IMG/VR virus record: IMGVR_UViG_3300015157_000044
Source: a virus
Taxonomy: Duplodnaviria > Heunggongvirae > Uroviricota > Caudoviricetes
Length of the DNA: 25,265 nt
Reading direction: 5' to 3' (one strand)
Part shown: positions 3,028 to 24,378 of the stretch, piece after piece
Layout: each line of letters opens with the position of its first letter
How positions within the stretch are numbered: position 1 is the stretch's first letter
The notes under the pieces: generated by a model
What the model was told of the DNA's origin: nothing
The model's input: only the letters and a program-made list of their open reading frames with translations
The model's database searches: none
Position numbers and translations under genes: made by a program

Positions 3028-4106
3028 CAGAACGGGTCCTCCTGTACTCTGGCTTTTTTCTTTTTCCGCGCGCCGGGGGCTTCGGGTTCAGGCAGATAAG
3101 CATCAGGTGGGCCGACACGGATTTCCGTCAGAGTGCCGTTCTGGTCCTGAGTAAACGTGACTTCCGAAACAAGCAGTTCGGTATTGTCGAAACCACAGAC
3201 CGGATCAAAGACAATCACCCGCTGGTTGGGCTGCCACAGCGTACCATTACCCTGTCGCCAGCCCTGCACCACATAGGTGGTTTCATCCGTCCGCGCCGCC
3301 CGTTGTCGGGCTTCAAAGTCCGCACGGGCAATACAGCCTGCCCCCGTAGCCTGCCCTGTCTGCCTGATATACATCGGACGGTAACGGGCAATAAATGCGT
3401 CCTCTGTGCGGGCCCGCAGCGCGGTGGTGGTGGCCTCACCGAAATCATCGTCGTTTCCGGCACGCTGCCCCGCCACCTGGTAAACAGAAAACCGCTCCCG
3501 GATACTCTTCTCCGTATCGCAGGAAAGGATGTTTTCCCCGAGTACCAGCGCAGTATGTGCTCGCGTTGAGCCAATACCGCCAATCACCAGCCTGCCGTGC
3601 GGGTCGTCGTAAGCCAGTGCCTGCTGCTGACCGAGTATTTTGTTGATTACCTCAATCACCGTTTCACCGTGATCAGGCTGGACATCAGGAATAACACCCG
3701 ACGGCGCACCGTTGTTCACCACCTCAATGCTGAAAGGCGCAGCAAGCGCCTGCGCAATCTGTACCAGCGATCGTCCGTTAAACTGTGTCGGTTCGGCTGC
3801 ACAGTCAATCAGGTCAGCGGTCAGACTGCGTCCGGCAATACCGGTGCTGACCGAACGGGCATCGTAACGAACGGGCGTCGCCTCCACCCAGCCGGTGATC
3901 ACCAGCTCATCACCAATCAACACCTCCACTTTTGAACCGTTTTTAATGCGCGGCTGAAGCGTGGTAATACCCTCATCTCCCGGCCACTGGCGGGTGATCT
4001 CCACACTGAAATCCCGCGCCAGCCGTTCAATACCGGCACCGATGCGCACCGATGTCCAGCCATTCCACTCCCGGCCATTTACCCGTAGCGTGACATTGTC
4101 GTTCAT
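3027..4106 (-). CDS. Tail/baseplate hub protein (Mu gpP / gp44-like)
   Basis: 359 aa ORF between the DNA circulation and gpV-like genes, in conserved Mu-like tail order. Confidence 0.65.
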   Translation of the reverse strand: MNDNVTLRVNGREWNGWTSVRIGAGIERLARDFSVEITRQWPGDEGITTLQPRIKNGSKVEVLIGDELVITGWVEATPVRYDARSVSTGIAGRSLTADLIDCAAEPTQFNGRSLVQIAQALAAPFSIEVVNNGAPSGVIPDVQPDHGETVIEVINKILGQQQALAYDDPHGRLVIGGIGSTRAHTALVLGENILSCDTEKSIRERFSVYQVAGQRAGNDDDFGEATTTALRARTEDAFIARYRPMYIRQTGQATGAGCIARADFEARQRAARTDETTYVVQGWRQGNGTLWQPNQRVIVFDPVCGFDNTELLVSEVTFTQDQNGTLTEIRVGPPDAYLPEPEAPGARKKKKARVQEDPF

Positions 4107-5431
4107 TGCACTGGCACCTTCAGAGGGATCACCGGCACAAAGCCAGGATGCGTAATGGCATTACGCCGGATAATGTCCGCGTCACGCGCCGCGTTATCAA
4201 ACCAGGTCGCCGCCAGCACCAGCGCGGGTAAAACCTCATCCGGCGTGCGCTGAATGATCCGTGCAGACTGTTCAAGGCGCGTGTTGATATCCGCATTCAG
4301 ATCTGCTTTCACCCGGCGCAGCGCCAGAAACAGCGCATCACTGGTTGTACGGGACAACTCCTTATCAATTGCCGTATTCAGTGTGTCGCGAATGTCGGTC
4401 AGTTCTTCCCACGTTGGCAGGTCAACCGTGTTTTTCACCGCCGGTGCATTGTTCAGTGCCGGATGCGTGACGGAAGGCCAGCCAGTGCTCTGCGCAGGTG
4501 TTGTTGCCTGCCCCACTGCGGAATTCTGCATCACCGCGGAAGTTGTTGGCGCAGGCAATCGGGTGACGGCATACGCCGCTTCGCTGATTGCGGTCGTACG
4601 AAGAGTGCTGGCAACCACATTACGCTGCTGCGTCGCCGTGGCGGTGGTTTTACTGTCCGTTTTCCAGACGCCGCGCGGTTGCAGATCGCTGCCGAGGCTG
4701 ACACCGGAAAGCGTTTTGATCATGGTGACCAGGTCGCTGGCGTTACCATAAAGGCGTTTCCCGGTACGCCACATTTTCTGCACCTGCTCAACGAAATTTT
4801 TGCCTGACGATGGTGGCGGCAGAAGTACCGAGATATCCCCCTGCAACAGCCTGGCAGCATCCGATACGGCAGAATCCACCACTTTCATCGCATCAGAAAT
4901 ATACCCAAGCATTGTGCCGGCATTACCAACGACGTCGTTCTGCACAAAATCCGCCACGCCATCGATACTGAAACCGCTGAAGCTGTCACTGATGCAGTCA
5001 TCCAGTGCAGAACAGGATGACATCAGCGTCTGCGCCGTCGCCGCACCTGATGTGGGGTAAGAGAGTTCTCCCGCTTCGACAAACTTCAGGTCAAAGCGGA
5101 CAATACGCCCTTCACTTTTCGATGTGCTGACCCGAACTTCCCCGTCAACACAGACGTTCATCTCACCGTATGTCGGATGGACAAGCGTGCCGGGACCGGG
5201 TTTATTCAGCGCGTCAATCAGGCGATCGCGCTGGTCAAAGCAGTCATCTCCCACCACATAAGCTGTGATGGACGGGCGGAAAGTGACTTTTCCCAGATCT
5301 TCGGTATAGGGCTTGTCGCGGTTCGGGTATTCATGTGTTTCCACACGGCGACCGGTTCCCGCACTTTCTTCTTCAACCTTAAACGGTACGCCGCGAAATG
5401 ACGCATCCTGAAGCCTGCCTTTCCACGTCAT
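4103..5431 (-). CDS. DNA circulation protein (Mu gpN / gp43-like)
   Basis: 442 aa ORF downstream of the tape measure gene; N-terminus (MTWKGRLQDASFRGVPFKVEEESAGTGRRVETHEYPNRDKPYTEDLGK) is typical of the DNA_circ_N family. Confidence 0.7.
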   Translation of the reverse strand: MTWKGRLQDASFRGVPFKVEEESAGTGRRVETHEYPNRDKPYTEDLGKVTFRPSITAYVVGDDCFDQRDRLIDALNKPGPGTLVHPTYGEMNVCVDGEVRVSTSKSEGRIVRFDLKFVEAGELSYPTSGAATAQTLMSSCSALDDCISDSFSGFSIDGVADFVQNDVVGNAGTMLGYISDAMKVVDSAVSDAARLLQGDISVLLPPPSSGKNFVEQVQKMWRTGKRLYGNASDLVTMIKTLSGVSLGSDLQPRGVWKTDSKTTATATQQRNVVASTLRTTAISEAAYAVTRLPAPTTSAVMQNSAVGQATTPAQSTGWPSVTHPALNNAPAVKNTVDLPTWEELTDIRDTLNTAIDKELSRTTSDALFLALRRVKADLNADINTRLEQSARIIQRTPDEVLPALVLAATWFDNAARDADIIRRNAITHPGFVPVIPLKVPVQ

Positions 5432-5444
5432 ATAAACTCCGGAT

Positions 5445-5503
5445 ACAAAAAACCCGCCAAATCTGCTTTGTCAGTTATTTACATCGCAGAAGATGTGGCG
5501 GGG
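5445..5503 (-). terminator. Terminator-like hairpin on the minus strand after the secreted-protein gene
   Basis: Inverted repeat CCCGCCA (5496-5502) / TGGCGGG (5451-5457) followed on the minus strand by a T6 run (plus A-run 5445-5450). The ~38 nt loop is long for a classical intrinsic terminator. Confidence 0.3.
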
Positions 5504-5521
5504 TTCTAATATTTTCAATTA

Positions 5522-6016
5522 CTATCTGAGTTGAACATCAATGGAATAAACATTACCACTCTTTATAAATTTAGAGTCCGTCCTTTCATCAAAGGATTCA
5601 AATGACTGTACCTTTGAAAACTTTTTCATTTTATTTTCAAAAATACTTTCATTAACACCAGTTAAATACTTGAATGCTCTACCAGCAAGGACCTCATTAC
5701 TTAAAGTTTTTGTGTTTTTATTGTCTTTGAAAAACCAAATAATAACCTTTTGTGGACATGATGGATTATAAACAGATATATAAAACTGCGGCTCATATTT
5801 TTCATCAGCGTCATCACTGAGCATTTCTTCAGAAGATAATTCTCTTCTGAATTCATATTGCCGCTTAGTTATTCCTTCATCCTTTATTATCTCTTGCTTA
5901 ACTGGTGCAATACCTATAGAAGAGATTAATTCTGACTCATTAAAGCTGAACTTACACTCTTCCGCAGCCAAGTTAAAAGATAAAAGTGCAGATATAAAAA
6001 AAACAAAGATACGCAT
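5522..6016 (-). CDS. Secreted hypothetical protein (single-gene AT-rich insert in the tail module)
   Basis: ORF 5522..6034 in the track; the likely start is ATG 6016 (GAAGGG Shine-Dalgarno 6 nt upstream), giving MRIFVFFISALLSFNLAA as a signal peptide. The gene is visibly AT-rich against GC-rich flanks and lies between the tape measure and DNA circulation genes. Mature part has two Cys. Confidence 0.6.
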   Translation of the reverse strand: MRIFVFFISALLSFNLAAEECKFSFNESELISSIGIAPVKQEIIKDEGITKRQYEFRRELSSEEMLSDDADEKYEPQFYISVYNPSCPQKVIIWFFKDNKNTKTLSNEVLAGRAFKYLTGVNESIFENKMKKFSKVQSFESFDERTDSKFIKSGNVYSIDVQLR

Positions 6017-6034
6017 AATCATCCCTTCAATCAT

Positions 6035-6115
6035 TTGTAAGGAATGATTATATTAACTACTTAAAGCTGAAAACCCAAATTATGCCAGACAAAAACACAT
6101 TAATCATTTTGTACA
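6035..6115 (-). promoter_or_regulatory. AT-rich intergenic region with candidate promoter for the secreted-protein gene
   Basis: Exact TATAAT on the minus strand (plus 6047-6052) about 30 nt upstream of ATG 6016; no convincing -35 box, so this is tentative. Confidence 0.25.
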
Positions 6116-7948
6116 CTACCTGAACCGCGTATAGCCAACATCATGGCTGACATCAAAACCGCTGGATCGCGTTTCCATAACCCGCATACCCGGAGGCGAA
6201 TTCACAAAAGATACCTTGATCTCACCATCAACTTTTGGCGCAGAAGCTTTGTTAATCATGAAGGGATTCGGGCCTGTGGCATTGGAGGCGTTGTTTGACT
6301 GAGCCGGATCCACCGCCGGATAAGGTGTGTATCCCCGCGCCGGTATTCCCGTCCCATAAGCATCATAAGCACCCGCGCCCCACTGCGCAGAGTTAATGGC
6401 ATCGACCGTGTCACCGGAACTGTCGGTAAACCACTCAATAATTGGCTTCAGCTTGTCCCACATATCCTGAAACCACTTAACAACCGGTCCCCAGTTATTG
6501 ATTACCATCCCCAGCGGCGACCAGGCAAAAACCTTCTTCAGAAGTTCCCAGCCAGCCTCAAAATAAGGACCAATGGTTTCCCAGAGCTTCTTGAAATAAG
6601 GTCCGACAACATCCCAGTTAGTGATAATTAATCCCGCAGCCAGGGCTATCGCCGTCGCAATCATTCCAATCGGCGTCATCGACATGATCCTGCTGACAAT
6701 ACTGATGGCACCGCCAACGCCCATCAATCCCAGTTTCAGAATCGCAAGACCGGCAGCAAGCCCGACGACGCCGCGAATAACCCGGGGATTTTCATCCGCA
6801 AACTTCGTGAATTTCTCCCCCAACTCCCCCAGCCATTGTGTGATATTTTTAGCGTCACCAGAAAATGCGCCGCCAATAGCCGCAAGGCCGTTAGTTGCGG
6901 TCCCCGTCATTGCCTCCCACAGGTTGGACAGCGTACCAAGCTGGGCCTGAACACGTTTATTCAGGCTGGCCTGTTTATTCATCTTCTGCTGGATCTGATC
7001 GTAGCCATCCTTTCCTTTATCGATTAGTGCATTGACCACCTGAAGGGTTTCGGCATCATCACCAAATATTGCCTTAAGTACACCTGTTCGCTTAACGTCG
7101 GTCAGTTTTCGCAGCTTTGCCAGTTGCCTGAACATGTTATCAAGACCGCCAAAACTACCTTTGCCGTCAGTAAAATCGAGCTGTACCCCGAGTTTCTGGC
7201 GGGCCATGACTTTATTGACGTCCCTGATTTTCTTAACGCTTAATCCGGACTGGATAACTTTTCGCAGGGCATTACCTGCTGACTCCCCGTTCATCCCCAT
7301 CTGATCCATCATGACGCTGATGGGGGCAAGGCTCTGTGCAGCCTGAAGACCGTCCTTGTTCACCATCTTCAGAACAGAACTGGTTTTAGTGAAGAAGGAC
7401 AACATGTTGGTATCGTCAACGCCCAGATAAAACGCCTTCTGGATAGTGTCGAACAGCCCCATCATGTCTTCTGACGCCGTTCCGGTAGCATCCTGCATCT
7501 TTGCAGCAAACTCAGCAGCCGCTTCCGGTGTTTTTTTCAGTTGTACCGCAAGATAAGCTGTCGCTTTACCCACACCACCCAGAATGTTTTCTGCCGGGAT
7601 CCCCTGACGCACCAGCATCTGCATCATGTTCTGGAAATCAGCCGTTGTACCGGGTAGCTGGTTACCCAGGCCAATAGCCAGTTTATTGATGTCCTGAAAG
7701 CTCTTTCCAACCTCGCCGTTCGCATCCATCATGGCGACTTTCAGCCCGGTAGCGGCGTTTTCCTGATCGGCATAAGATTTCAGGGAAAGCGTCAGCCCCG
7801 CTGCCAGTCCTCCACCAAGCGCCAGCCCACCCTGTGACGCTTCTTCCGCCTGGCGTTTAAATCCCCGGATTTTCTTTTGCATTTTCGACAGCGCGGGAGA
7901 AAGCCTGTCGACACCGGTGATCAACGCCTTAAGCTCAAATTCAGCCAT
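6116..7948 (-). CDS. Tail tape measure protein
   Basis: 610 aa ORF immediately downstream of the frameshifted chaperone pair; Ala/Gly-rich with hydrophobic segments in the C-terminal half, typical of tape measure proteins. Confidence 0.8.
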   Translation of the reverse strand: MAEFELKALITGVDRLSPALSKMQKKIRGFKRQAEEASQGGLALGGGLAAGLTLSLKSYADQENAATGLKVAMMDANGEVGKSFQDINKLAIGLGNQLPGTTADFQNMMQMLVRQGIPAENILGGVGKATAYLAVQLKKTPEAAAEFAAKMQDATGTASEDMMGLFDTIQKAFYLGVDDTNMLSFFTKTSSVLKMVNKDGLQAAQSLAPISVMMDQMGMNGESAGNALRKVIQSGLSVKKIRDVNKVMARQKLGVQLDFTDGKGSFGGLDNMFRQLAKLRKLTDVKRTGVLKAIFGDDAETLQVVNALIDKGKDGYDQIQQKMNKQASLNKRVQAQLGTLSNLWEAMTGTATNGLAAIGGAFSGDAKNITQWLGELGEKFTKFADENPRVIRGVVGLAAGLAILKLGLMGVGGAISIVSRIMSMTPIGMIATAIALAAGLIITNWDVVGPYFKKLWETIGPYFEAGWELLKKVFAWSPLGMVINNWGPVVKWFQDMWDKLKPIIEWFTDSSGDTVDAINSAQWGAGAYDAYGTGIPARGYTPYPAVDPAQSNNASNATGPNPFMINKASAPKVDGEIKVSFVNSPPGMRVMETRSSGFDVSHDVGYTRFR

Positions 7949-8108: not shown

Positions 8109-8359
8109 CCAGCCACAAGCCACGCCGCTGCATTCAGGTCTGCCGGAGACATCTGGTCGACAGAGCTTTGCGGCACTTTCGCCAGCCGCACAATGTATTT
8201 CGACACCACATGCGCCAGAAGTCTGACGGACTCATCCTGATTCATCTGGTAGGGATACCCCAGCTCACGGACATCTTTCCCGGTGGGCTCATCAAACTCC
8301 AGTACGGAGAGTGTCTCGCCATGAGCGGTAATCGGTTTCTTTAACTCAAGCTCTTTCAT
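8090..8359 (-). CDS. Tail assembly chaperone (zero-frame product)
   Basis: 89 aa ORF between the tube and tape measure genes, with a slippery site near its 3' end; position is conserved for the gpG/gpE-type chaperone. Confidence 0.65.
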   Translation of the reverse strand: MKELELKKPITAHGETLSVLEFDEPTGKDVRELGYPYQMNQDESVRLLAHVVSKYIVRLAKVPQSSVDQMSPADLNAAAWLVAGFFLQA

Positions 8360-8715
8360 TACTGGTAATCCCCTTCTTCACCGTGGAACTCAAGATCGAC
8401 CGTGCCTTCTTCGGCATTATGGTTCGCTTCGCCGTGCAGCCAGGCAGACGACAGTACATAGACCTGACCGTTCGCCAGCTCGGCAGTGATGGTCATCTCA
8501 TCAGACGAGGTGATTTTGCTCACCGGAAAATTCTTCGGCACCTTGAAGGTCCCTTTGACATAAGGCGCACGGTGAGTTTCCTTGCGGTCCACTGAACCGT
8601 CCAGGCCGATGATGTCATCATTGACCGTCCTGTTCATGGGCACCTCAATGCCGCCGGTCAGCGATAGCTGCTGACCGTCAATTTTGAAATAACAGGTTCC
8701 CCCGATACGGGCCAT
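8359..8715 (-). CDS. Tail tube protein (Mu gpM-like)
   Basis: 118 aa ORF immediately after the sheath gene with a 1-nt overlap. Confidence 0.7.
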   Translation of the reverse strand: MARIGGTCYFKIDGQQLSLTGGIEVPMNRTVNDDIIGLDGSVDRKETHRAPYVKGTFKVPKNFPVSKITSSDEMTITAELANGQVYVLSSAWLHGEANHNAEEGTVDLEFHGEEGDYQ

Positions 8716-10211
8716 TATGCGGACTCCTCTGAATACTGAAGACGGAACTGGTTAACCACGGCAAAGACACGCAACTGGTTAACATAGTCAGGCGGGAACA
8801 GCGTGTTCAGGCGGTTCGGATCGCTGGCATCACGCTCCACAACCAGGTACTGCTTAAACAGTTCGTAGTTTTCCACGATCCCCGCACGCTCAAGCTGACG
8901 GTAGGTTGCCAGCAGTTCCCCTTTGATCACCGCCGGGGTGACAATCGCCTGACCGGGACCAAAGCGGGTACCGTCACTGGCAAGCTTGTGACGCCCGTAC
9001 TTACTGGTAATGACGGATTTCAGTTTGCGCAGTACATACGCGCTGGTATGCAGAGTCTCACTGTCGAGGTAGCTGTTATCCGCAACCCCGTAAGCGTTTT
9101 TCCTGTACGTGGTGACATCACGCTGAATGCGTAGTACCCCGCTTTCGACATACGCCGTTGCCACGCCATGAGACAGCAGGGTCTGTTGTTCGGTCATCGT
9201 GAACCGTTTCCCCTTCGGCGCAGGCAGCATACCCACCAGCTCACCGGTCTGCGTGGGACGTGCCGGATCGTTGCGAATAAACACCGCTGCGCGGGCGGTA
9301 CGGCTTGCCGCCAGTTCGTCGGCAGGCGTCTGGGTCTCTTTTTCGTACCCCGCCAGGGTAATGTGCTGCTGGTTAAACTGGTCACCTGCGGTCACCAGTT
9401 CTGACAGCGTGCCGATCTTTGCCGTATACACATGACCATACAGCTGACGCGCATAGCTCCAGCGACCGCTGGTATCGTTCATCTCGGTCACCAGCGTGTT
9501 AACGGAGGCCGTGTCGTTGAACGGCAGGCCGATATAATCAAACGGCTCATCCGCCATTGCAGCCACCGCGCCGGTGAGAACCGGAGCACCCGTTCCGGCG
9601 GTACCCGTCGCCACGGCAATCTGTACGCCCGCTGGCAGCACTTCGCCCCCACCAAAGCCGTAGTAATTGAGGCTGACAGGAATTTCATTCCCGCAAAGCC
9701 CCTTATGACGCGCGGTCAGTGTGACCACGCCTGCCGAAGATGAAGCCGTAAACGGCAGGGTCGGAACGGCATTGATGGCATCCTGGATACTGCTGGCAAT
9801 CGTCGTGACGTTATCGCCGTTGGTCACCGGAGCCTGCACGCGGGTACGTCCCACATAGATATTCACCGTGCCGCTTTCGGTTGCTTCCCCGGTCACCGTC
9901 AGCGTAACCGTTGCCGCCGCGCCTGTGGCTTCCGGAACGGCAATCACATACAGCTCACCAAACGGGTCGGTCTGGCGATAAGCCTCGACCATACGCGCCA
10001 GCTGACTTCCCGCACCACAAATCTGGCGTGCATAGTCTGCCGATGGCATCAGCACCAGACTGTTGGCAACAATCTCTGCACCGTTATTGGCATGACCAAT
10101 CAGCAGCGATGCTCCGCTGTCCTGTGCAGTATTCGCCGCCTGGTTATCCATTTCCGCATAAAACAACGGAACCAGCGTATTCGACGGAATGGTGTTAAAG
10201 CTTATCGTCAT
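8715..10211 (-). CDS. Contractile tail sheath protein (Mu gpL-like)
   Basis: 498 aa ORF followed by the tube gene; size and order are typical of myovirus sheath proteins. Confidence 0.8.
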   Translation of the reverse strand: MTISFNTIPSNTLVPLFYAEMDNQAANTAQDSGASLLIGHANNGAEIVANSLVLMPSADYARQICGAGSQLARMVEAYRQTDPFGELYVIAVPEATGAAATVTLTVTGEATESGTVNIYVGRTRVQAPVTNGDNVTTIASSIQDAINAVPTLPFTASSSAGVVTLTARHKGLCGNEIPVSLNYYGFGGGEVLPAGVQIAVATGTAGTGAPVLTGAVAAMADEPFDYIGLPFNDTASVNTLVTEMNDTSGRWSYARQLYGHVYTAKIGTLSELVTAGDQFNQQHITLAGYEKETQTPADELAASRTARAAVFIRNDPARPTQTGELVGMLPAPKGKRFTMTEQQTLLSHGVATAYVESGVLRIQRDVTTYRKNAYGVADNSYLDSETLHTSAYVLRKLKSVITSKYGRHKLASDGTRFGPGQAIVTPAVIKGELLATYRQLERAGIVENYELFKQYLVVERDASDPNRLNTLFPPDYVNQLRVFAVVNQFRLQYSEESA

Positions 10212-18028: not shown

Positions 18029-18379
18029 TCACTTCAACCGTTCACGGGCCGTCTTCGCCTTATGACACGGCCAGCACAGACTCTGCAGATTACAGTCGGC
18101 ATCAGTGCCGCCATGCGCTTTAGGGATGATGTGGTCAACAGTTTTCGCCTCACGCACCACACCAGCACGCAGACATAGCTGACACAGGCCTTTGTCACGC
18201 TTCAGGACACGCACGCGGATAACATCCCACTTCGAACCATAACCGCGCTGATGACGAGATTGTCCTGGCTTGTATTGCTTCCAGCCTTCGCTTTTATGGC
18301 TTTCGCAGTAGCCTGACGGGTCCGTGGTTGTAGAGCGGCAGCCGCGAATACGGCAGGCCTTTGGGATTCGCGGGGGCAT
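18029..18379 (-). CDS. HNH endonuclease (terminase-associated)
   Basis: 116 aa ORF with Cys/His clusters (CRIRGC ... CQLCLRAG ... VDHIIPKAHGG ... CWPCHKAK) immediately upstream of the terminase small subunit. Confidence 0.85.
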   Translation of the reverse strand: MPPRIPKACRIRGCRSTTTDPSGYCESHKSEGWKQYKPGQSRHQRGYGSKWDVIRVRVLKRDKGLCQLCLRAGVVREAKTVDHIIPKAHGGTDADCNLQSLCWPCHKAKTARERLK

Positions 18380-18430: not shown

Positions 18431-18454
18431 AAAAAAACCGCCCGAAGGCGGTTT
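18431..18454 (-). terminator. Rho-independent terminator (minus strand)
   Basis: Stem CCGCC/GGCGG (18438-18442 / 18447-18451) with a 4-nt loop, followed on the minus strand by a T7 run (plus A-run 18431-18437). Lies 17 nt after the stop of the small gene at 18472. Confidence 0.65.
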
Positions 18455-19775: not shown

Positions 19776-20111
19776 TTACTCCTTCGAGCTACCAAATTTA
19801 TTACCGATTACTCGCATTGCAGCCCCACGAATAGCATCGACACCGATCAGCCCCACGCCACCACCAATGGCAACAGAAAGCGATTTAGGCCATCCGACAT
19901 ACTCAAGCGCGGATGCAAAAGTCAGCGTCAGAGCACCACAGAGCAAAATCTCGAGCGTTTTTCGCTTCCAGCCACCACCACCACCAAAATAAGCAATACG
20001 CAAACCAGCCATAACGATCGACATAATCACTGCGCCAAGAGGCGTATCTCCACGCCACCAGCTCTGGAAAATCTCCAGCCAATCCGGCCATGTGTTTGGA
20101 TTATGGGGCAT
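19776..20111 (-). CDS. Putative holin
   Basis: 111 aa ORF with hydrophobic segments, ending 4 nt upstream of the endolysin gene; GAGGTGA Shine-Dalgarno upstream. Confidence 0.65.
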   Translation of the reverse strand: MPHNPNTWPDWLEIFQSWWRGDTPLGAVIMSIVMAGLRIAYFGGGGGWKRKTLEILLCGALTLTFASALEYVGWPKSLSVAIGGGVGLIGVDAIRGAAMRVIGNKFGSSKE

Positions 20112-20291: not shown

Positions 20292-21581
20292 TCAGAGCTC
20301 CTGATAAGCAGGTTGCAATTTTTCACACCACTGCCTTAAAGTAGAAGCCCTTCTCTTTATTGTTTTGGAGCTGAGAGATATACATCTATCTTGCAAAAAT
20401 CGTTCAGCTGTAAGTGGATCGAGCTCAGAAAGATTTTTAGCCTGACTCCAGGTAATCCACGCCCACCCGCAATGACTTGTTTCAAAACCGCGTGCAGCGA
20501 TTCTTAGTCTCTTATCATAGTCAGATTCAACCAATTGCTGACCAAGAGCTGAAACAGAACCATTACTATTTAGTAACCCAAGTATTTTGGCCGCATGAAT
20601 ATAATACAATATATGTCGATTATCCAGACCAGTACTAATCAGGTTCAGATGCTTCTCTTGCCATTTTAATTCAACTATCTTAAACACTTGTTCAATTAGG
20701 TTAGCCTGCGGTACCTGATAACTACTAACAACTTGAGTAGCCATTTTAATCAATGTGCCAGAATAGAACTCAGCATCAGTTTTTCTGACTCTAAGAATAA
20801 TATCATCAGTCACATTACTTTTTAGTTCAAAACATGAACTTGTCTCTATCACACTTTCAAATAAAGCAGATAACATCTGAACATCGATATTATTCTGTTT
20901 AACAAAACCAATAATATCTTTTCTTGATAGAATCAGCTCATTTAGTTTTTTCAGCAATGGTTCAATTTGCTGCATTTTATCTGCCTTGAATGAAAGAACA
21001 AATGAACCAGGACGTCCAGATACTGGACTCATTACATCTTTTTCATCAAATGCAGCTAATATTGATGAATAGAAATCATTAAAACACTCAAAAAGCTTCG
21101 AGACGCCTTTTAAAACCAAGGGTTCCACAGAAGTTGCTGTTTTCTCCACATGAATCTCATGCGTAGAGAATTCTACCTCCTTTCCAATTTTACCATTAGG
21201 TAATACAGGAAGAACACTACTAATATATAAGTTAGGTTCTGGAATTTTTATCTTCTCATTTAACTCAGAAACATTTATTTTTATTTCATCAACATGATTA
21301 TCTTCATAGTAAATATTAAACTGATAGCAAAGCTTTTGTTCTTGATACACTAAAACACTTCTAATATCAATTCTTTTACGCTCGAAGTGCTCCAACCTAT
21401 CTTTTGAAATCGGTATGATAATCCATTTATCATAATCTTCTTCGTCGCCAATCCAATAGACAACAAACATGCTATTTATTTCATTAGACACAGAGAAAAG
21501 TTTTGGCTCTTCGAAGAACTCATAAATTTTTTGCATATATAATGTGCCGAACACACTATCTTCCAAAAAAATATTGCTCAT
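20292..21581 (-). CDS. Hypothetical protein, 429 aa (distal gene of the AT-rich two-gene insert; function unknown)
   Basis: Long AT-rich ORF with a GAGAGGTGG Shine-Dalgarno; its ATG overlaps the stop of the upstream gene (ATGA). No Walker A, HNH, or other motif recognised by eye. Confidence 0.75.
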   Translation of the reverse strand: MSNIFLEDSVFGTLYMQKIYEFFEEPKLFSVSNEINSMFVVYWIGDEEDYDKWIIIPISKDRLEHFERKRIDIRSVLVYQEQKLCYQFNIYYEDNHVDEIKINVSELNEKIKIPEPNLYISSVLPVLPNGKIGKEVEFSTHEIHVEKTATSVEPLVLKGVSKLFECFNDFYSSILAAFDEKDVMSPVSGRPGSFVLSFKADKMQQIEPLLKKLNELILSRKDIIGFVKQNNIDVQMLSALFESVIETSSCFELKSNVTDDIILRVRKTDAEFYSGTLIKMATQVVSSYQVPQANLIEQVFKIVELKWQEKHLNLISTGLDNRHILYYIHAAKILGLLNSNGSVSALGQQLVESDYDKRLRIAARGFETSHCGWAWITWSQAKNLSELDPLTAERFLQDRCISLSSKTIKRRASTLRQWCEKLQPAYQEL

Positions 21582-22018
21582 CTAACCACCTCTCTTATAC
21601 AGGTGAATTTTTCATGAACTCGAGCATCTTTACAAAGCCAAATGGTAAAATGAGTCGAATCAGGAGCTCCTGTTTTTAGCATTCTTCCATCCTGTGGATT
21701 CAACTCGCCTTTAGCAATAAACCTTTCACCTATTCCTTCAGGAAATTTATTAAATACATTTACCAGTGATGTTTCGTCCATGAACATAGAAACACCATAG
21801 CAGCATTTCAATTTTAACCCTTGGAACTTTTTCATTCTTTTTGGGTTTTCTTCTTTCATGTTTAAAAAACAAGCTTTCCCAGGTGGATTATTTCTGGCTA
21901 AGCGATAAAAAACCCCTTCAGCATCCAAGGACTCTTTTGGAGGAACATCTGCAGGAAAATAATCGGGAAAAATCTGTTGGGCAGAGTCTTCAAGAACCTG
22001 CTGTGCATTTTTAGTCAT
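21578..22018 (-). CDS. Hypothetical protein, ~146 aa (proximal gene of the AT-rich two-gene insert; function unknown)
   Basis: ORF 21578..22045 in the track begins at a TTG; the first ATG is 22018 (MTKNAQQVLEDSAQQIFPDYF...). Translationally coupled to the 429 aa gene. No recognisable motif. Confidence 0.65.
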   Translation of the reverse strand: MTKNAQQVLEDSAQQIFPDYFPADVPPKESLDAEGVFYRLARNNPPGKACFLNMKEENPKRMKKFQGLKLKCCYGVSMFMDETSLVNVFNKFPEGIGERFIAKGELNPQDGRMLKTGAPDSTHFTIWLCKDARVHEKFTCIREVVR

Positions 22019-22045
22019 ACAATACGCTACCCAAGTAATTAACAA

Positions 22046-22616
22046 AAATCTGCCAATTTATTGGATATACACGTCCCAAATCCCTTGGCATCGTATTGAA
22101 TATAACAACAAGCACATTAATCACATATGCAATAAAGGCATAAAAAACACAACATATATAGCAAAAAGAAATCAACAACAATATACGGGATGATGAGGTT
22201 TTTTTTATCTATATATAGTGGCTGGGCAAAAGAATTGTTATAAAGTTGGCGTCCCTTGCTCCCATGTAATCATATGAAACACAGGATATAATTCCTGAAG
22301 GTAATCACATACTTCCCTAGATACATAGATGAGAGACTAAAATAAAACCTACCGCCAAGAACTATGCTTTTTTCAACCAATCGTACTCTCTGCCCTGTCT
22401 AAAAGGCGGCCATTCAAAGCAAGTACTTATTCTTTTATGTTTATCAAGAAGCTACTAAGACTATTCAGAACTGATATTTGGATAACAAAATACCTACTTG
22501 ATGGCGGGTTCTTGAAGATTCTCAACGGCAGACATACAAAGCCCATCGTTGAGAAAATCTTATCCATATTTTTTGAAAAATGCAAGCATCATGTCGCCAT
22601 CTTCGGCGAAAATCAC
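22046..22616 (-). promoter_or_regulatory. AT-rich non-coding region between the Q-like gene and the insert; expected site of the late promoter and Q-utilisation elements
   Basis: 570 bp without a credible minus-strand ORF. Candidate sigma70-like promoter on the minus strand, TTGCAT (22580-22585), 17-nt spacer, TAAGAT (22557-22562), followed by inverted repeat TCTCAACG / CGTTGAGA (22547-22554 / 22520-22527). Assignment is positional and weak. Confidence 0.3.
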
Positions 22617-23369
22617 TTATCTCGTCACCTTTCTCAATTGTGCTTCAGCGTAAGATTCCTCCTGCCAGCACTTTGTAACCAGTTTATCAATGACATTTGC
22701 ATATCCTTTGTACCACTGATAATCAGTCAGGTCCGGTACCAGCTTCTGGACATGATGCCGCGCCAGTGTGGTTGGTAAACGACTAAACCGTTTTCCATTG
22801 CAACGCCCACAAATCTTATAAACAGGTGTGCCATGAAGCCGGGTCCTTTTTTCATCCAGGACAATACCTTTACCCTTACACCCTCTGCACGCTGTGCTGA
22901 CTTCTCCCTTACCATGACAATGCTGACATAGTTCCTTCACCCACTCTTCCTTGATAACAGATTCCCCGCTTCTGGAGTGTTTCACCACTTCGCGCAATAC
23001 ATTATGAAATCCAGTACCAGCACAATGCTCACAGCGAGCCTTACTTGCCGCAGACCTGGAATAATCAGCAAAGGCAAAATTCACAAGGTAAGGGATGATC
23101 TGTAACCGGGTTTCTTCACTCAATTTGTTCAATGTCGGGTTATCCAGTGCCATCGCGTAATTGAGCAGACCTTCAATCGCAAATTGAGGATCCTGAACAC
23201 CAACTTTTGCCAGGAATAAGGCAAACCCAAGCGGTGCTTTCGACTGCACCATCCCCTGCGCAGCCATCACATCCGTAATCGTTAAACCACCTGAGCCTGT
23301 CGCCGGTGCGTCATCGCTCAATTTTGGAGATTTTGGGGAGTAATATTTTGGTAAGGCTTCAAGGTTCAT
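22617..23369 (-). CDS. Putative late antiterminator Q-like protein with four CxxCxGxG zinc-finger repeats
   Basis: ORF 22617..23411 in the track; likely start is ATG 23369 (GGAGAA Shine-Dalgarno), giving 250 aa. Contains CEHCAGTG, CQHCHGKG, CRGCKGKG and CGRCNGKR. It is the last early-region gene before the late/lysis region. Confidence 0.5.
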   Translation of the reverse strand: MNLEALPKYYSPKSPKLSDDAPATGSGGLTITDVMAAQGMVQSKAPLGFALFLAKVGVQDPQFAIEGLLNYAMALDNPTLNKLSEETRLQIIPYLVNFAFADYSRSAASKARCEHCAGTGFHNVLREVVKHSRSGESVIKEEWVKELCQHCHGKGEVSTACRGCKGKGIVLDEKRTRLHGTPVYKICGRCNGKRFSRLPTTLARHHVQKLVPDLTDYQWYKGYANVIDKLVTKCWQEESYAEAQLRKVTR

Positions 23370-23382
23370 GCTCGTTCTCCAC

Positions 23383-24378
23383 TTACGCCAGTACGCCAAT
23401 TGCCAGCGCACGATCGATAAAACGAAATATCAGCTCCAGTTGGGAGCCATACATCTCTTCAAATGCCACGGTATCCGCATGCAGTTCGTCGTGATGCTTT
23501 CTGCACAAAGGCAACACAAAGAGGTCATGCGCTTTTGTACCCATTCCCCCCTGACCGTGGCCTATCAGGTGGTGGGGATCATCAGCAGGCTTTCCACAAC
23601 ATGCACACGGCTGTGTCTTAACCCAGCGCGTGTACTTTTCATTAACCCAGCGGCGACGTTTTGGGCGTAACATAAAAGACTCCGGCGACTCCGGATCCAC
23701 TTTCAGCGCCAGCACCTTTTTCGCCTTATCCTGGATGATGCTGGTGGCAGGAACCGAAGGCACAAGGTCACTTTCCCGGGTGACAGACGGCACAACAGGC
23801 TTCGGTAATCTCAGTGCCTTACGGGCTGCACTTTCCGGTAAGGCATCCGCCAGGTCATTACGAATCAGCCACCAGCACAGTTCCGGAATTGTCACAACGT
23901 GACTATCATCAAAACCGAGATCACGGCGCACAACAGATAACACCCAGCGGGCACAGTTATCCGTTGCCATTGATTCCAGCCGTTCCGTGAACTGATCGCG
24001 CAGCTGGTTATCGCAGTGCCAGCACAGACGAATTGCTCCCGGAGCGTGCCACATTGTGGTCATGTTCTCGCTGTGCCAGTCGGAATGAAGCCACTGGCAG
24101 CCTTTTTCACGAAGTAACCAACTTTCAAGACATTCCACGCCACCAGCACGACGGATCACTGCCTCATTGCGGAACACGGCCCGAACGGCAGGATCATCCG
24201 CCAGCGGTTGTGATGCCGCCGGAACGGCACCACTGGCGAAAGATGAATAACGTTCCGGCTCAGGCTCCAGCAGGACACGCCCCTGCATAAACAGGGGCAT
24301 CAGCTCTGAACCTGGTCTGAACAATACGATCCCCATACGCGGGGCAATTTCAGGGGTCAGTAGTGCTCTCACGGTCAC
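23383..24378 (-). CDS. DUF968-like prophage protein (YdfU-like) with C-terminal HNH-like Cys/His motif
   Basis: 331 aa ORF; C-terminus has CACCGKPADDPHHLIGHGQGG ... CRKHHDELH. Start codon appears to be GTG at 24378, adjacent to the stop of the KilA-N gene. Confidence 0.5.
   Translation of the reverse strand: MTVRALLTPEIAPRMGIVLFRPGSELMPLFMQGRVLLEPEPERYSSFASGAVPAASQPLADDPAVRAVFRNEAVIRRAGGVECLESWLLREKGCQWLHSDWHSENMTTMWHAPGAIRLCWHCDNQLRDQFTERLESMATDNCARWVLSVVRRDLGFDDSHVVTIPELCWWLIRNDLADALPESAARKALRLPKPVVPSVTRESDLVPSVPATSIIQDKAKKVLALKVDPESPESFMLRPKRRRWVNEKYTRWVKTQPCACCGKPADDPHHLIGHGQGGMGTKAHDLFVLPLCRKHHDELHADTVAFEEMYGSQLELIFRFIDRALAIGVLA

What the first reader, a model, noticed from the sequence alone, without database searches (positions are those of the whole stretch)
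5522..6016. AT-rich gene for a secreted protein inserted in the middle of the tail module
A 164 aa protein with a classical Sec signal peptide (MRIFVFFISALLSFNLAA) and two cysteines in the mature part is wedged between the tape measure and DNA circulation genes, where conserved Mu-like tail modules have no gene. It is AT-rich, has its own intergenic spacers on both sides with a TATAAT element upstream and a terminator-like hairpin downstream, and has no obvious virion role. This is the signature of a lysogenic-conversion gene, for example a periplasmic superinfection-exclusion or host-interaction factor.
Basis: partly seen in the sequence, partly recalled or inferred. Interest (0 to 1): 0.6.

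Follow-up and report, generated by a model that had tools for sequence, protein, structure and literature searches.

The report
Exported accessory protein in prophage tail operon
A small AT-rich gene for a protein exported to the periplasm sits in a swappable slot between two tail genes of an E. coli prophage; it is an optional passenger gene of unknown function, most plausibly a blocker of incoming phages, and is a fairly ordinary kind of prophage add-on.

Summary
Window 5522-6016 (minus strand) is a real 164-aa gene with a conserved cleavable signal peptide and two conserved cysteines. It has 31% G+C against about 55% in its flanks. It lies between the tape measure gene and the DNA circulation gene of an SfV-like prophage, which has an HK97-type head and a Mu-like tail.

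About 1,096 of 5,426 complete E. coli genomes carry these flanks at about 97% identity, but only 85 carry this gene. Roughly half have an empty slot, as do phages SfV, SfII and SfI. Others carry one of at least four unrelated small genes, mostly membrane- or lipid-anchored.

The gene is therefore dispensable cargo, not a tail part. The family is tiny, restricted to Enterobacterales, annotated only as hypothetical, and has no informative sequence or fold match. Homologues down to 26% identity sit in this same slot in all but one case, and they diverge about twice as fast as their neighbours.

A conserved intrinsic terminator follows the gene. The claimed promoter is not supported: the TATAAT is within chance, and distant orthologues start 10-17 nt after the tape measure stop. 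Expression in lysogens is therefore unproven. My best guess is a periplasmic superinfection-exclusion factor, held with low-to-moderate confidence. Interest is modest.

The parts
5522..6016 (-). Coding sequence of the 164-aa exported protein ('X'); the stop codon is at 5522-5524 and the ATG at 6014-6016.
   Evidence: PHROG 8976 matches full length at E 1.8e-105. dN/dS is 0.27 against phage SKA5. Homologues reach down to 26% identity.
5963..6016 (-). Signal-peptide-coding part (residues 1-18, MRIFVFFISALLSFNLAA). Cleavage is predicted after A18, which would give a 146-aa mature protein of about 17.1 kDa with pI about 5.2.
   Evidence: Hydrophobicity and the -3/-1 pattern are conserved across the family. 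AlphaFold pLDDT is low (54-59) for residues 1-20 and above 80 afterwards. The cleavage site is inferred, not predicted by SignalP.
6023..6028 (-). Shine-Dalgarno-like GAAGGG, 6 nt upstream of the ATG at 6016.
   Evidence: Read directly from the sequence.
6017..6115 (-). 99-nt AT-rich spacer (28% G+C) between the tape measure stop and the start of X. It contains TATAAT at 6047-6052 but no significant sigma-70 promoter.
5447..5503 (-). Intrinsic-terminator-like hairpin (stem arms 5496-5502 and 5453-5459, T-run 5447-5452), immediately upstream of the ribosome-binding site and start of the DNA circulation gene.
   Evidence: Fold dG is -24.2 kcal/mol, z = -3.05. At the same position, 14 orthologous loci carry a canonical terminator, CCCGC-TTCG-GCGGG-T7 or a close variant. 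The empty-slot phages SfII and YeP1 carry one too.
5457..6123 (.). The variable cassette. Sequence homology to prophages with an empty slot or with other cargo stops at about 5456 on the left. It resumes at about 6121-6152 on the right, within the last codons of the tape measure gene.
   Evidence: slot sequences.
6116..7948 (-). Tail tape measure protein gene (610 aa), the upstream neighbour.
   Evidence: PF10145, E 9.8e-27; PHROG tape measure families.
4103..5431 (-). DNA circulation / baseplate hub protein gene (442 aa, Mu gp43-like), the downstream neighbour.
   Evidence: PF07157, E 1.5e-34; phrog_184.
22617..23411 (-). Q-type antiterminator gene of the same prophage. It is relevant because it would allow late transcription to read through the terminator downstream of X.
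   Evidence: PF03589 Antiterm, E 1.1e-53. Read-through itself is inferred from lambdoid biology.

Best explanation
X is a dispensable accessory ('cargo', moron-type) gene. It occupies a variable slot between the tape measure and DNA circulation genes of SfV-like temperate phages.

Its product is made with a cleavable Sec signal peptide and released as a soluble periplasmic protein of about 146 aa, probably with a C21-C87 disulfide. It therefore cannot be a part of the cytoplasmically assembled tail.

The gene lies on the late-operon strand, upstream of a conserved intrinsic terminator. It is thus transcribed with the tail genes during lytic growth, when the prophage's Q antiterminator should allow read-through. 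In the E. coli lineage it may also be transcribed weakly from its AT-rich upstream spacer in lysogens, with the terminator insulating the baseplate genes.

The most likely activity is superinfection exclusion in the envelope: binding an incoming phage's tail tip or tape measure protein, or a periplasmic host factor needed for genome entry, so that DNA injection fails.

Shown here: the gene is real, under selection, dispensable, carries an export signal, is locked to this position, and sits in a slot with variable cargo. Inferred: periplasmic location, the disulfide, the expression mode and the exclusion activity.

Confidence splits into about 0.85 for 'optional exported cargo, not structural' and about 0.35 for exclusion as the activity. 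The figure given covers the whole statement.
For: - **Dispensable.** 1,096 of 5,426 E. coli genomes carry the flanks at about 97% identity, and 85 carry X. Plaque-forming or inducible phages SfV, SfII and SfI have an empty slot.
- **Variable slot.** Alternative cargo includes a 176-aa protein with an N-terminal membrane helix (178 genomes) and a 148-aa membrane-anchored OB-fold protein matching phrog_8545 'superinfection exclusion Sie-like' at E 1.5e-49 (72 genomes). It also includes a 225-aa lipoprotein with an LLGGC lipobox (55 genomes) and a bPH_1 protein (28 genomes). Four of the five cargo types, counting X, are envelope-targeted.
- **Real gene under selection.** dN/dS is 0.27 with the same dS as its neighbours. 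The signal peptide and both cysteines are conserved down to 26% identity. The AlphaFold model is confident (pLDDT 87.8, pTM 0.79).
- **Locked to the slot next to the tape measure gene.** This holds in all 58 IMG/VR loci that have both flanks, and in Atlantibacter, Yersinia, Pantoea phage AH07 and metagenomic loci.
- **Evolves faster than its neighbours.** X is 61/57/36/26% identical where the tape measure protein is 79/72/60/58%. This is typical of proteins in conflict interfaces.
- **Terminator and antiterminator.**
- **Precedent.** HK97 gp15 is a moron next to the tape measure gene whose membrane protein blocks genome entry, and escape from it maps to the tail region (PMC3594210, read).
Against: - No experiment or homology ties X to phage exclusion. 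There are no hits in PADLOC, Pfam or NCBIfam, and no informative fold match.
- No supported promoter exists. Orthologues abut the tape measure gene tightly, so expression in lysogens, which classical exclusion by a prophage needs, is unproven.
- Positional conservation could simply reflect cargo being carried along by recombination in the conserved flanks.
- E. coli prophages with and without X have nearly identical tape measure proteins, so X is not matched to a particular tape measure variant.
Confidence: 0.4

Rival explanations
1. X is a late lytic-cycle periplasmic helper. It is expressed only with the tail operon, not in lysogens, and acts in the infected cell's envelope. It might block secondary adsorption or injection into the already infected or lysing cell, neutralise a periplasmic host factor, or tune lysis.
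For: It lies on the same strand as the late operon. Its start is 10-17 nt after the tape measure stop, with its own Shine-Dalgarno, in Pantoea AH07, the Yersinia loci, L019, L071 and L073. The window has no significant promoter. The terminator is a feature of the slot, not of the gene.
Against: Closely related phages propagate without it. AT-rich composition, a variable slot and replacement by a Sie-like protein are the usual signature of prophage-expressed cargo. The E. coli lineage has a 99-nt AT-rich spacer that could hold a weak promoter.
Confidence: 0.25
2. X is a lysogenic-conversion factor unrelated to phages. It would be a periplasmic protein that changes host physiology or host-animal interaction, for example stress, serum or antimicrobial-peptide resistance, or adhesion.
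For: It is exported, AT-rich cargo in a prophage common in avian, bovine and human E. coli. Lambda Bor and Lom are precedents for such morons (PMC3594210). One signal-peptide-less homologue sits beside a pertactin-type autotransporter gene in a chromosome.
Against: The family also occurs in prophages of a plant-leaf Pantoea, the fish pathogen Yersinia ruckeri and environmental Yersinia, which argues against a niche-specific virulence role. It has no similarity to known virulence or resistance proteins. It is strictly linked to one phage slot.
Confidence: 0.2
3. X is a structural or assembly component of the tail, for example a tape-measure-associated or baseplate accessory protein.
For: It is located inside the tail module, is conserved in position across divergent modules, and is tightly coupled to the tape measure gene in some lineages.
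Against: A conserved cleavable signal peptide sends it out of the cytoplasm, where tails assemble. It is absent from SfV, SfII, SfI, SfIV, phiP27 and YeP1 and from most prophages with about 97%-identical tail genes. It is replaced by unrelated proteins, one of them on the opposite strand. It matches no structural family.
Confidence: 0.03
4. X is a selectively neutral or decaying passenger ORF with no current function.
For: It has no known domain, occurs in a small family, is frequently lost, and is less constrained than its neighbours (dN/dS 0.27 against 0.04-0.13).
Against: The reading frame, signal peptide, both cysteines and about 20 other positions are kept down to 26-36% identity across genera. 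dN/dS is well below 1. The predicted fold is confident and compact.
Confidence: 0.05

Closest known systems
HK97 gp15 moron (superinfection exclusion; Cumby et al. 2012, summarised in PMC3594210)
   Same: It is an extra, compositionally foreign small gene inserted in the tail operon directly next to the tape measure gene of a temperate coliphage. Its product is targeted to the envelope and it is dispensable for the phage. gp15 blocks genome entry in a way that depends on the incoming phage's tail region.
   Different: gp15 is a small inner-membrane protein of the YebO family, lies upstream of the tape measure gene, and is shown to be expressed from the prophage. X is a 146-aa soluble periplasmic protein with no sequence relation to it, lies downstream of the tape measure gene, and has no demonstrated promoter, expression or phenotype.
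Periplasmic or envelope exclusion proteins of other phages (P1 Sim, T4 Sp/Imm, T5 Llp, phi80/N15 Cor, TP-J34 Ltp), recalled from general knowledge and not tested here
   Same: These are exported or lipid-anchored phage proteins that stop incoming phage DNA at the envelope.
   Different: No sequence or fold similarity was detected to any solved structure. None of them is encoded in a tape-measure/DNA-circulation slot.
PHROG 8976 (unknown function)
   Same: X is a full-length member (E 1.8e-105, positions 1-164 of 164).
   Different: The family carries no functional annotation, so membership explains nothing.
Variable cargo or defence hotspots between conserved phage genes (for example the P2 old/tin and Z/fun hotspots; bioRxiv 10.1101/2024.10.15.618418)
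   Same: It is a fixed junction between conserved structural genes where unrelated small genes replace each other among near-identical prophages.
   Different: It belongs to a different phage group and a different junction. None of the cargo matches a known defence system in PADLOC. Cargo here consists of single small envelope proteins rather than multi-gene systems.

Membership tests
Moron (Hendrix/Juhala definition) | An extra gene lies between two genes that are adjacent in related phages. | tested here: met
   SfV, SfII and SfI have about 60 bp in place of the 665-bp cassette, with flanks at about 97% identity. About half of the sampled E. coli prophages are empty.
Moron (Hendrix/Juhala definition) | Base composition differs from the surrounding genes. 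| tested here: met
   31.5% G+C against 52-56%. The same holds in orthologous loci (0.33-0.40 against 0.47-0.56).
Moron (Hendrix/Juhala definition) | A transcription terminator lies downstream. | tested here: met
   A hairpin plus T6 at 5447-5503, dG -24.2, z -3.05, with canonical terminators in all orthologous loci. Caveat: the terminator is also present in the empty slots of SfII and YeP1, so it belongs to the slot. Its activity was not tested.
Moron (Hendrix/Juhala definition) | The gene has its own promoter that allows expression from the repressed prophage. | tested here: inconclusive
   The consensus scan found none. TATAAT is expected by chance in 16% of shuffles, and the best -35/-10 match of 8/12 is reached by 92% of shuffles. 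Orthologues with 10-17-nt spacers have no room for one. Weak or non-canonical promoters cannot be excluded without RNA data.
Moron (Hendrix/Juhala definition) | The gene was acquired by horizontal transfer independently of its neighbours. | tested here: not met
   dS for X equals that of its neighbours (0.072 against 0.056-0.076). X identity falls in step with the flanking genes across lineages. This points to long co-inheritance with the module. By contrast, the bPH_1 cargo is 89% identical between hosts whose flanks are about 71% identical.
Sec-exported soluble periplasmic protein | An N-terminal signal peptide (positive n-region, hydrophobic core of 10-15 residues, small residues at -1 and -3) and no further membrane segments. 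| tested here: met
   MR + IFVFFISALLSF + NLAA. A18 (-1) is invariant among the 9 closer members, the pattern is kept in 12 of 13 members, and no other hydrophobic segment exists. There is no lipobox, because the cysteine is at +3 rather than +1. No SignalP run or experiment was possible.
Superinfection exclusion protein | The protein reduces infection by incoming phage at or after adsorption when expressed in the host. | not testable with these tools
   This needs plating and DNA-entry assays.
Superinfection exclusion protein | Sequence or structural homology to a characterised exclusion or defence protein. | tested here: not met
Tail structural or assembly component | Conserved presence in functional phages sharing the module, and a cytoplasmic location. 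| tested here: not met
   It is absent from SfV, SfII, SfI, SfIV, phiP27 and YeP1, and it carries a conserved export signal.

The most novel reading that the evidence does not exclude
The junction between the tape measure and DNA circulation genes of SfV-like prophages, with its conserved terminator, is present in about one in five E. coli genomes. On this reading it is a previously undescribed hotspot for single-gene, envelope-acting anti-phage cargo. X would be its oldest resident: a periplasmic protein with a new fold that has co-evolved with the tail module across Enterobacterales and blocks tape-measure or tail-tip-mediated genome entry.
Probability: 0.25. Interest if true: 0.55.

Novelty: new member of a known kind. 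Interest (0 to 1): 0.35.

Why it matters
If X and its slot-mates block phage entry, they would add a set of small, easily tested envelope-level exclusion proteins. These are carried by a prophage type found in about 20% of complete E. coli genomes, and in Shigella, Salmonella, Yersinia and Pantoea. That would bear on phage-therapy host range and on how myophage tape measure and tail-tip proteins cross the periplasm. Otherwise this is one more uncharacterised prophage passenger gene. The general phenomenon of morons in tail operons has been known since HK97 and lambda.

Tried and rejected
- **Family libraries.** Pfam, NCBIfam and PADLOC scans of X found nothing. A Pfam scan of all 12 aligned members at E<=10 gave only scattered noise. 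A profile search against PDB sequences gave noise only, with a best E of 0.013 over 40 residues.
- **Exhaustive profile search.** Searching 1.84 billion representatives gave 13 hits. One of them, P0023, is a 1,766-aa eukaryotic repeat protein with 13 weak stretches. I rejected it as a repeat artefact.
- **Promoter.** The consensus scan and the shuffle test gave no support. Aligning the upstream spacers of orthologues by eye showed unrelated spacer types and only weak, non-conserved -35/-10-like pairs, for example TTGACA-N15-TAATAT in L067.
- **Deletion scar.** I tried to show that the empty SfII site is a deletion scar of an X cassette by gapped alignment. The alignment was uninformative.
- **Lipoprotein reading.** Rejected, because there is no lipobox and the cysteine is at +3.
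- **Literature.** Searches for this slot, this family, phage SKA5 and phage AH07 found only genome announcements and general moron or hotspot papers.

Full report
**What is in the window**

All long ORFs of the window lie on the minus strand and form the late region of a temperate phage. In order they are:
- a Q-type antiterminator (22617-23411, PF03589) and a holin (19776-20111);
- an HK97-type capsid, then the sheath (8715-10211) and tube (8359-8715);
- the tape measure protein (TMP, 6116-7948, PF10145);
- the ORF in question, called X here;
- the DNA circulation protein (4103-5431, PF07157);
- the Mu gp44-48-like baseplate genes.

The nearest named phages are Escherichia phage SKA5 (97% identical across the region, including X) and the Shigella serotype-converting phages SfV, SfII and SfI.

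**The observation**

- **ORF and start.** The ORF runs 5522..6034 on the minus strand. The ATG at 6016 has GAAGGG 6 nt upstream, and it gives the 164-aa product that matches PHROG 8976 end to end.
- **Signal peptide.** The N-terminus (MR, then twelve hydrophobic residues, then NLAA) has the features of a cleavable Sec signal peptide. It is conserved in 12 of 13 family members. The alanine at -1 is invariant among the 9 closer members, and a cysteine sits at +3. There is no lipobox and no other hydrophobic segment.
- **Cysteines.** C87 is invariant and C21 nearly so. I infer a periplasmic disulfide, which is not shown.
- **Composition.** G+C is 31.5% in the ORF against 52-56% in its neighbours. 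This is one of only two AT-rich islands in the 25-kb window.
- **Terminator.** A long hairpin (CCCGCCA...TGGCGGG) followed by T6 lies at 5447-5503, directly before the ribosome-binding site of the DNA circulation gene. Its dG is -24.2 kcal/mol and z is -3.05.
- **Promoter.** 16% of shuffles of the spacer contain one. The best -35/-10 combination scores 8 of 12, which 92% of shuffles reach. The consensus scan found no promoter between 5300 and 6300.

**It is optional cargo in a variable slot**

A 2.2-kb query spanning the slot matches 1,096 of 5,426 complete E. coli genomes at about 97% identity in the flanks. Only 84-85 of them contain X.

In an evenly spaced sample of 50 of the 1,104 matching records:
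- 4 had X;
- 23 had an empty slot (a span of 1,580 bp instead of 2,201 bp);
- 14 had other inserts;
- 9 matched only on the DNA circulation side.

Phages SfV, SfII and SfI have the empty form. The alternative inserts are:

| Cargo | Feature | E. coli genomes |
|---|---|---|
| 176-aa protein | N-terminal membrane helix | 178 |
| 148-aa OB-fold protein (PF12869), opposite strand | Membrane-anchored; matches phrog_8545 'superinfection exclusion Sie-like', E 1.5e-49 | 72 |
| 225-aa protein | Lipoprotein, LLGGC lipobox | 55 |
| 125-aa protein | bPH_1 domain | 28 |

None of these matches PADLOC. Counting X, four of the five cargo types carry an export or membrane-anchor signal.

Homology between the variants stops at about window 5456, at the T-run of the terminator. 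It resumes within the last few codons of the TMP gene, at about 6121-6152.

**It is an old resident of this slot, not a recent arrival**

The family is very small: 11-15 clusters among 5.8 billion proteins, and 13 hits among 1.84 billion representatives. Every source names it 'hypothetical'. It occurs in Escherichia, Shigella, Salmonella, Atlantibacter, Yersinia and Pantoea. The exact window protein is recorded from E. coli.

Every homologue whose context I could read lies between a TMP gene and a DNA circulation gene, with one exception described below. This covers:
- metagenomic and Atlantibacter loci at 58-62% identity;
- Yersinia ruckeri at 36%;
- a 26% homologue;
- gene 16 of the temperate Pantoea phage AH07 at 43%;
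- all 58 IMG/VR loci that have both flanks.

X identity falls in step with its neighbours but faster. It is 61/57/36/26% identical where TMP is 79/72/60/58% and the DNA circulation protein is 76/67/58/44%.

Against SKA5, dS for X (0.072) equals that of its neighbours (0.056-0.076). Its dN/dS is 0.27, against 0.04-0.13 for the neighbours. X is therefore a selected, fast-evolving gene that has been co-inherited with the module.

The bPH_1 cargo behaves differently. It is 89% identical between E. coli and Edwardsiella phage EPP-1, although the flanks there are only about 71% identical. That pattern indicates recent horizontal spread.

The one exception is a homologue without a signal peptide next to a pertactin-type autotransporter gene in a chromosome.

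**Expression signals**

The upstream spacer is 64-133 nt, AT-rich and unrelated in sequence among the Escherichia/Atlantibacter-type loci. In AH07, the Yersinia loci, L019, L071 and L073, X starts only 10-17 nt after the TMP stop, with a Shine-Dalgarno in between. There, it must be transcribed with the tail operon unless a promoter lies inside the TMP gene.

All 14 orthologous loci examined have a canonical terminator downstream: CCCGC-TTCG-GCGGG-T7 or a close variant, followed by the DNA circulation ribosome-binding site. The same element is present in the empty slots of SfII and YeP1 and after the bPH_1 cargo of EPP-1. It is absent from phiP27 and SfIV, whose TMP and DNA circulation genes are 15-24 nt apart.

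The terminator is thus a fixed right-hand border of the slot rather than part of X. With a Q antiterminator encoded in the same prophage, read-through during lytic growth is expected. This is an inference from lambdoid biology.

**What the protein is**

AlphaFold2 with the 12-sequence alignment gives a confident compact alpha/beta model (pLDDT 87.8, pTM 0.79). Confidence is low only for the signal peptide.

- Foldseek against the PDB gives nothing at E<=1e-3.
- BFVD gives one full-length match: A0A8S5RVB8, 180 aa, E 5e-6, TM 0.59, from a gut virome contig. Its name could not be verified.

Function therefore cannot be read from homology.

**Interpretation**

The structural reading is effectively excluded. 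An exported protein cannot join cytoplasmic tail assembly. Close relatives make functional virions without it. The slot also accepts unrelated genes, one of them on the opposite strand.

What remains is an accessory periplasmic protein. I favour envelope-level superinfection exclusion for four reasons:
- its slot-mates are envelope-targeted, and one belongs to a PHROG annotated as Sie-like;
- it is persistently linked to the TMP gene;
- it evolves faster than its neighbours;
- HK97 gp15 is a precedent: a moron beside the TMP gene whose membrane product blocks genome entry in a tail-dependent way (PMC3594210).

This remains a hypothesis at about 0.35. The main rivals are a late, lytic-cycle periplasmic function (favoured by the tight operon coupling and the lack of a promoter) and a host-physiology conversion factor.

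**Novelty**

Morons in tail operons and cargo hotspots between conserved phage genes are well known. I found no paper on this slot or this family. It is best filed as a new, uncharacterised member of a known kind.

The most interesting by-product is the slot itself. It is a terminator-bordered junction, present in about 20% of complete E. coli genomes, that carries at least five alternative small genes, four of them envelope-targeted.

Noticed in passing
window 20292-22500 (minus strand): This is the second and only other AT-rich island of the window (32-37% G+C). It lies between the Q antiterminator (22617-23411) and the holin (19776-20111). It holds a 429-aa protein with DUF6575 and a sub-threshold DUF7226 match, plus a 155-aa ORF with no Pfam hit. 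The SfIV paper describes a moron at the equivalent position (PMC3851460).
   Followed up: partly
window 5447-5503; L002, L006, L015, L019, L022, L058-L075; L009 (SfII), L024 (YeP1), L021 (EPP-1): A canonical intrinsic terminator (CCCGC-TTCG-GCGGG-T7 or a close variant) lies just upstream of the DNA circulation ribosome-binding site. It is conserved across lineages whose flanking proteins are only 55-60% identical, and it is present even when the slot is empty. It is absent in phiP27 and SfIV. Why a late operon keeps a strong terminator between the tape measure and baseplate genes is unexplained.
   Followed up: partly
L011 1096-1473 (E. coli) and L021 2292-2669 (Edwardsiella phage EPP-1): The bPH_1-domain cargo of the same slot is 89% identical at the protein level between an E. 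coli prophage and an Edwardsiella phage. The flanking tail genes are only about 71% identical in DNA. The cargo was therefore exchanged recently between divergent modules.
   Followed up: partly
L012 1143-1589 (E. coli WP8-S18-CRE-02): An alternative cargo on the opposite strand is a 148-aa protein with an N-terminal membrane helix and a tRNA_anti-like OB fold (PF12869). It matches phrog_8545 'superinfection exclusion Sie-like' at E 1.5e-49 and is present in 72 E. coli genomes.
   Followed up: partly
L071 4043-4594 (minus strand in the locus): In one IMG/VR prophage, an extra 183-aa ORF on the opposite strand lies between the X homologue and the DNA circulation gene. The slot can therefore hold more than one gene. 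The family of this ORF was not determined.
   Followed up: no
L006 9980-11778 (Atlantibacter prophage): Two extra genes (506 aa and 93 aa, with no Pfam or PADLOC hit) lie between the DNA circulation gene and the gp44-like gene. This suggests a second variable slot one gene further along the tail module.
   Followed up: no
L017 8001-8471: A 156-aa homologue of X (35% identity) lacks the signal peptide and the first cysteine. It lies outside any prophage, directly downstream of a 1,079-aa pertactin-type autotransporter gene, in an AT-rich patch of an unidentified enterobacterial chromosome that is not E. coli.
   Followed up: partly
window 18029-18379 (minus strand) and 18435-18454: An HNH endonuclease gene (PF01844) lies next to the terminase genes. 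A canonical terminator (AAACCGCC-TTCG-GGCGGTTT-T7) lies just upstream of it on the coding strand.
   Followed up: no
E. coli plasmid records NZ_CP081704.1, NZ_CP142787.1 and NZ_CP146678.1: A few copies of this tail module, with an empty slot or with the 176-aa cargo, are on records annotated as 44-64-kb plasmids. These could be phage-plasmids or unintegrated or misassembled prophages.
   Followed up: no
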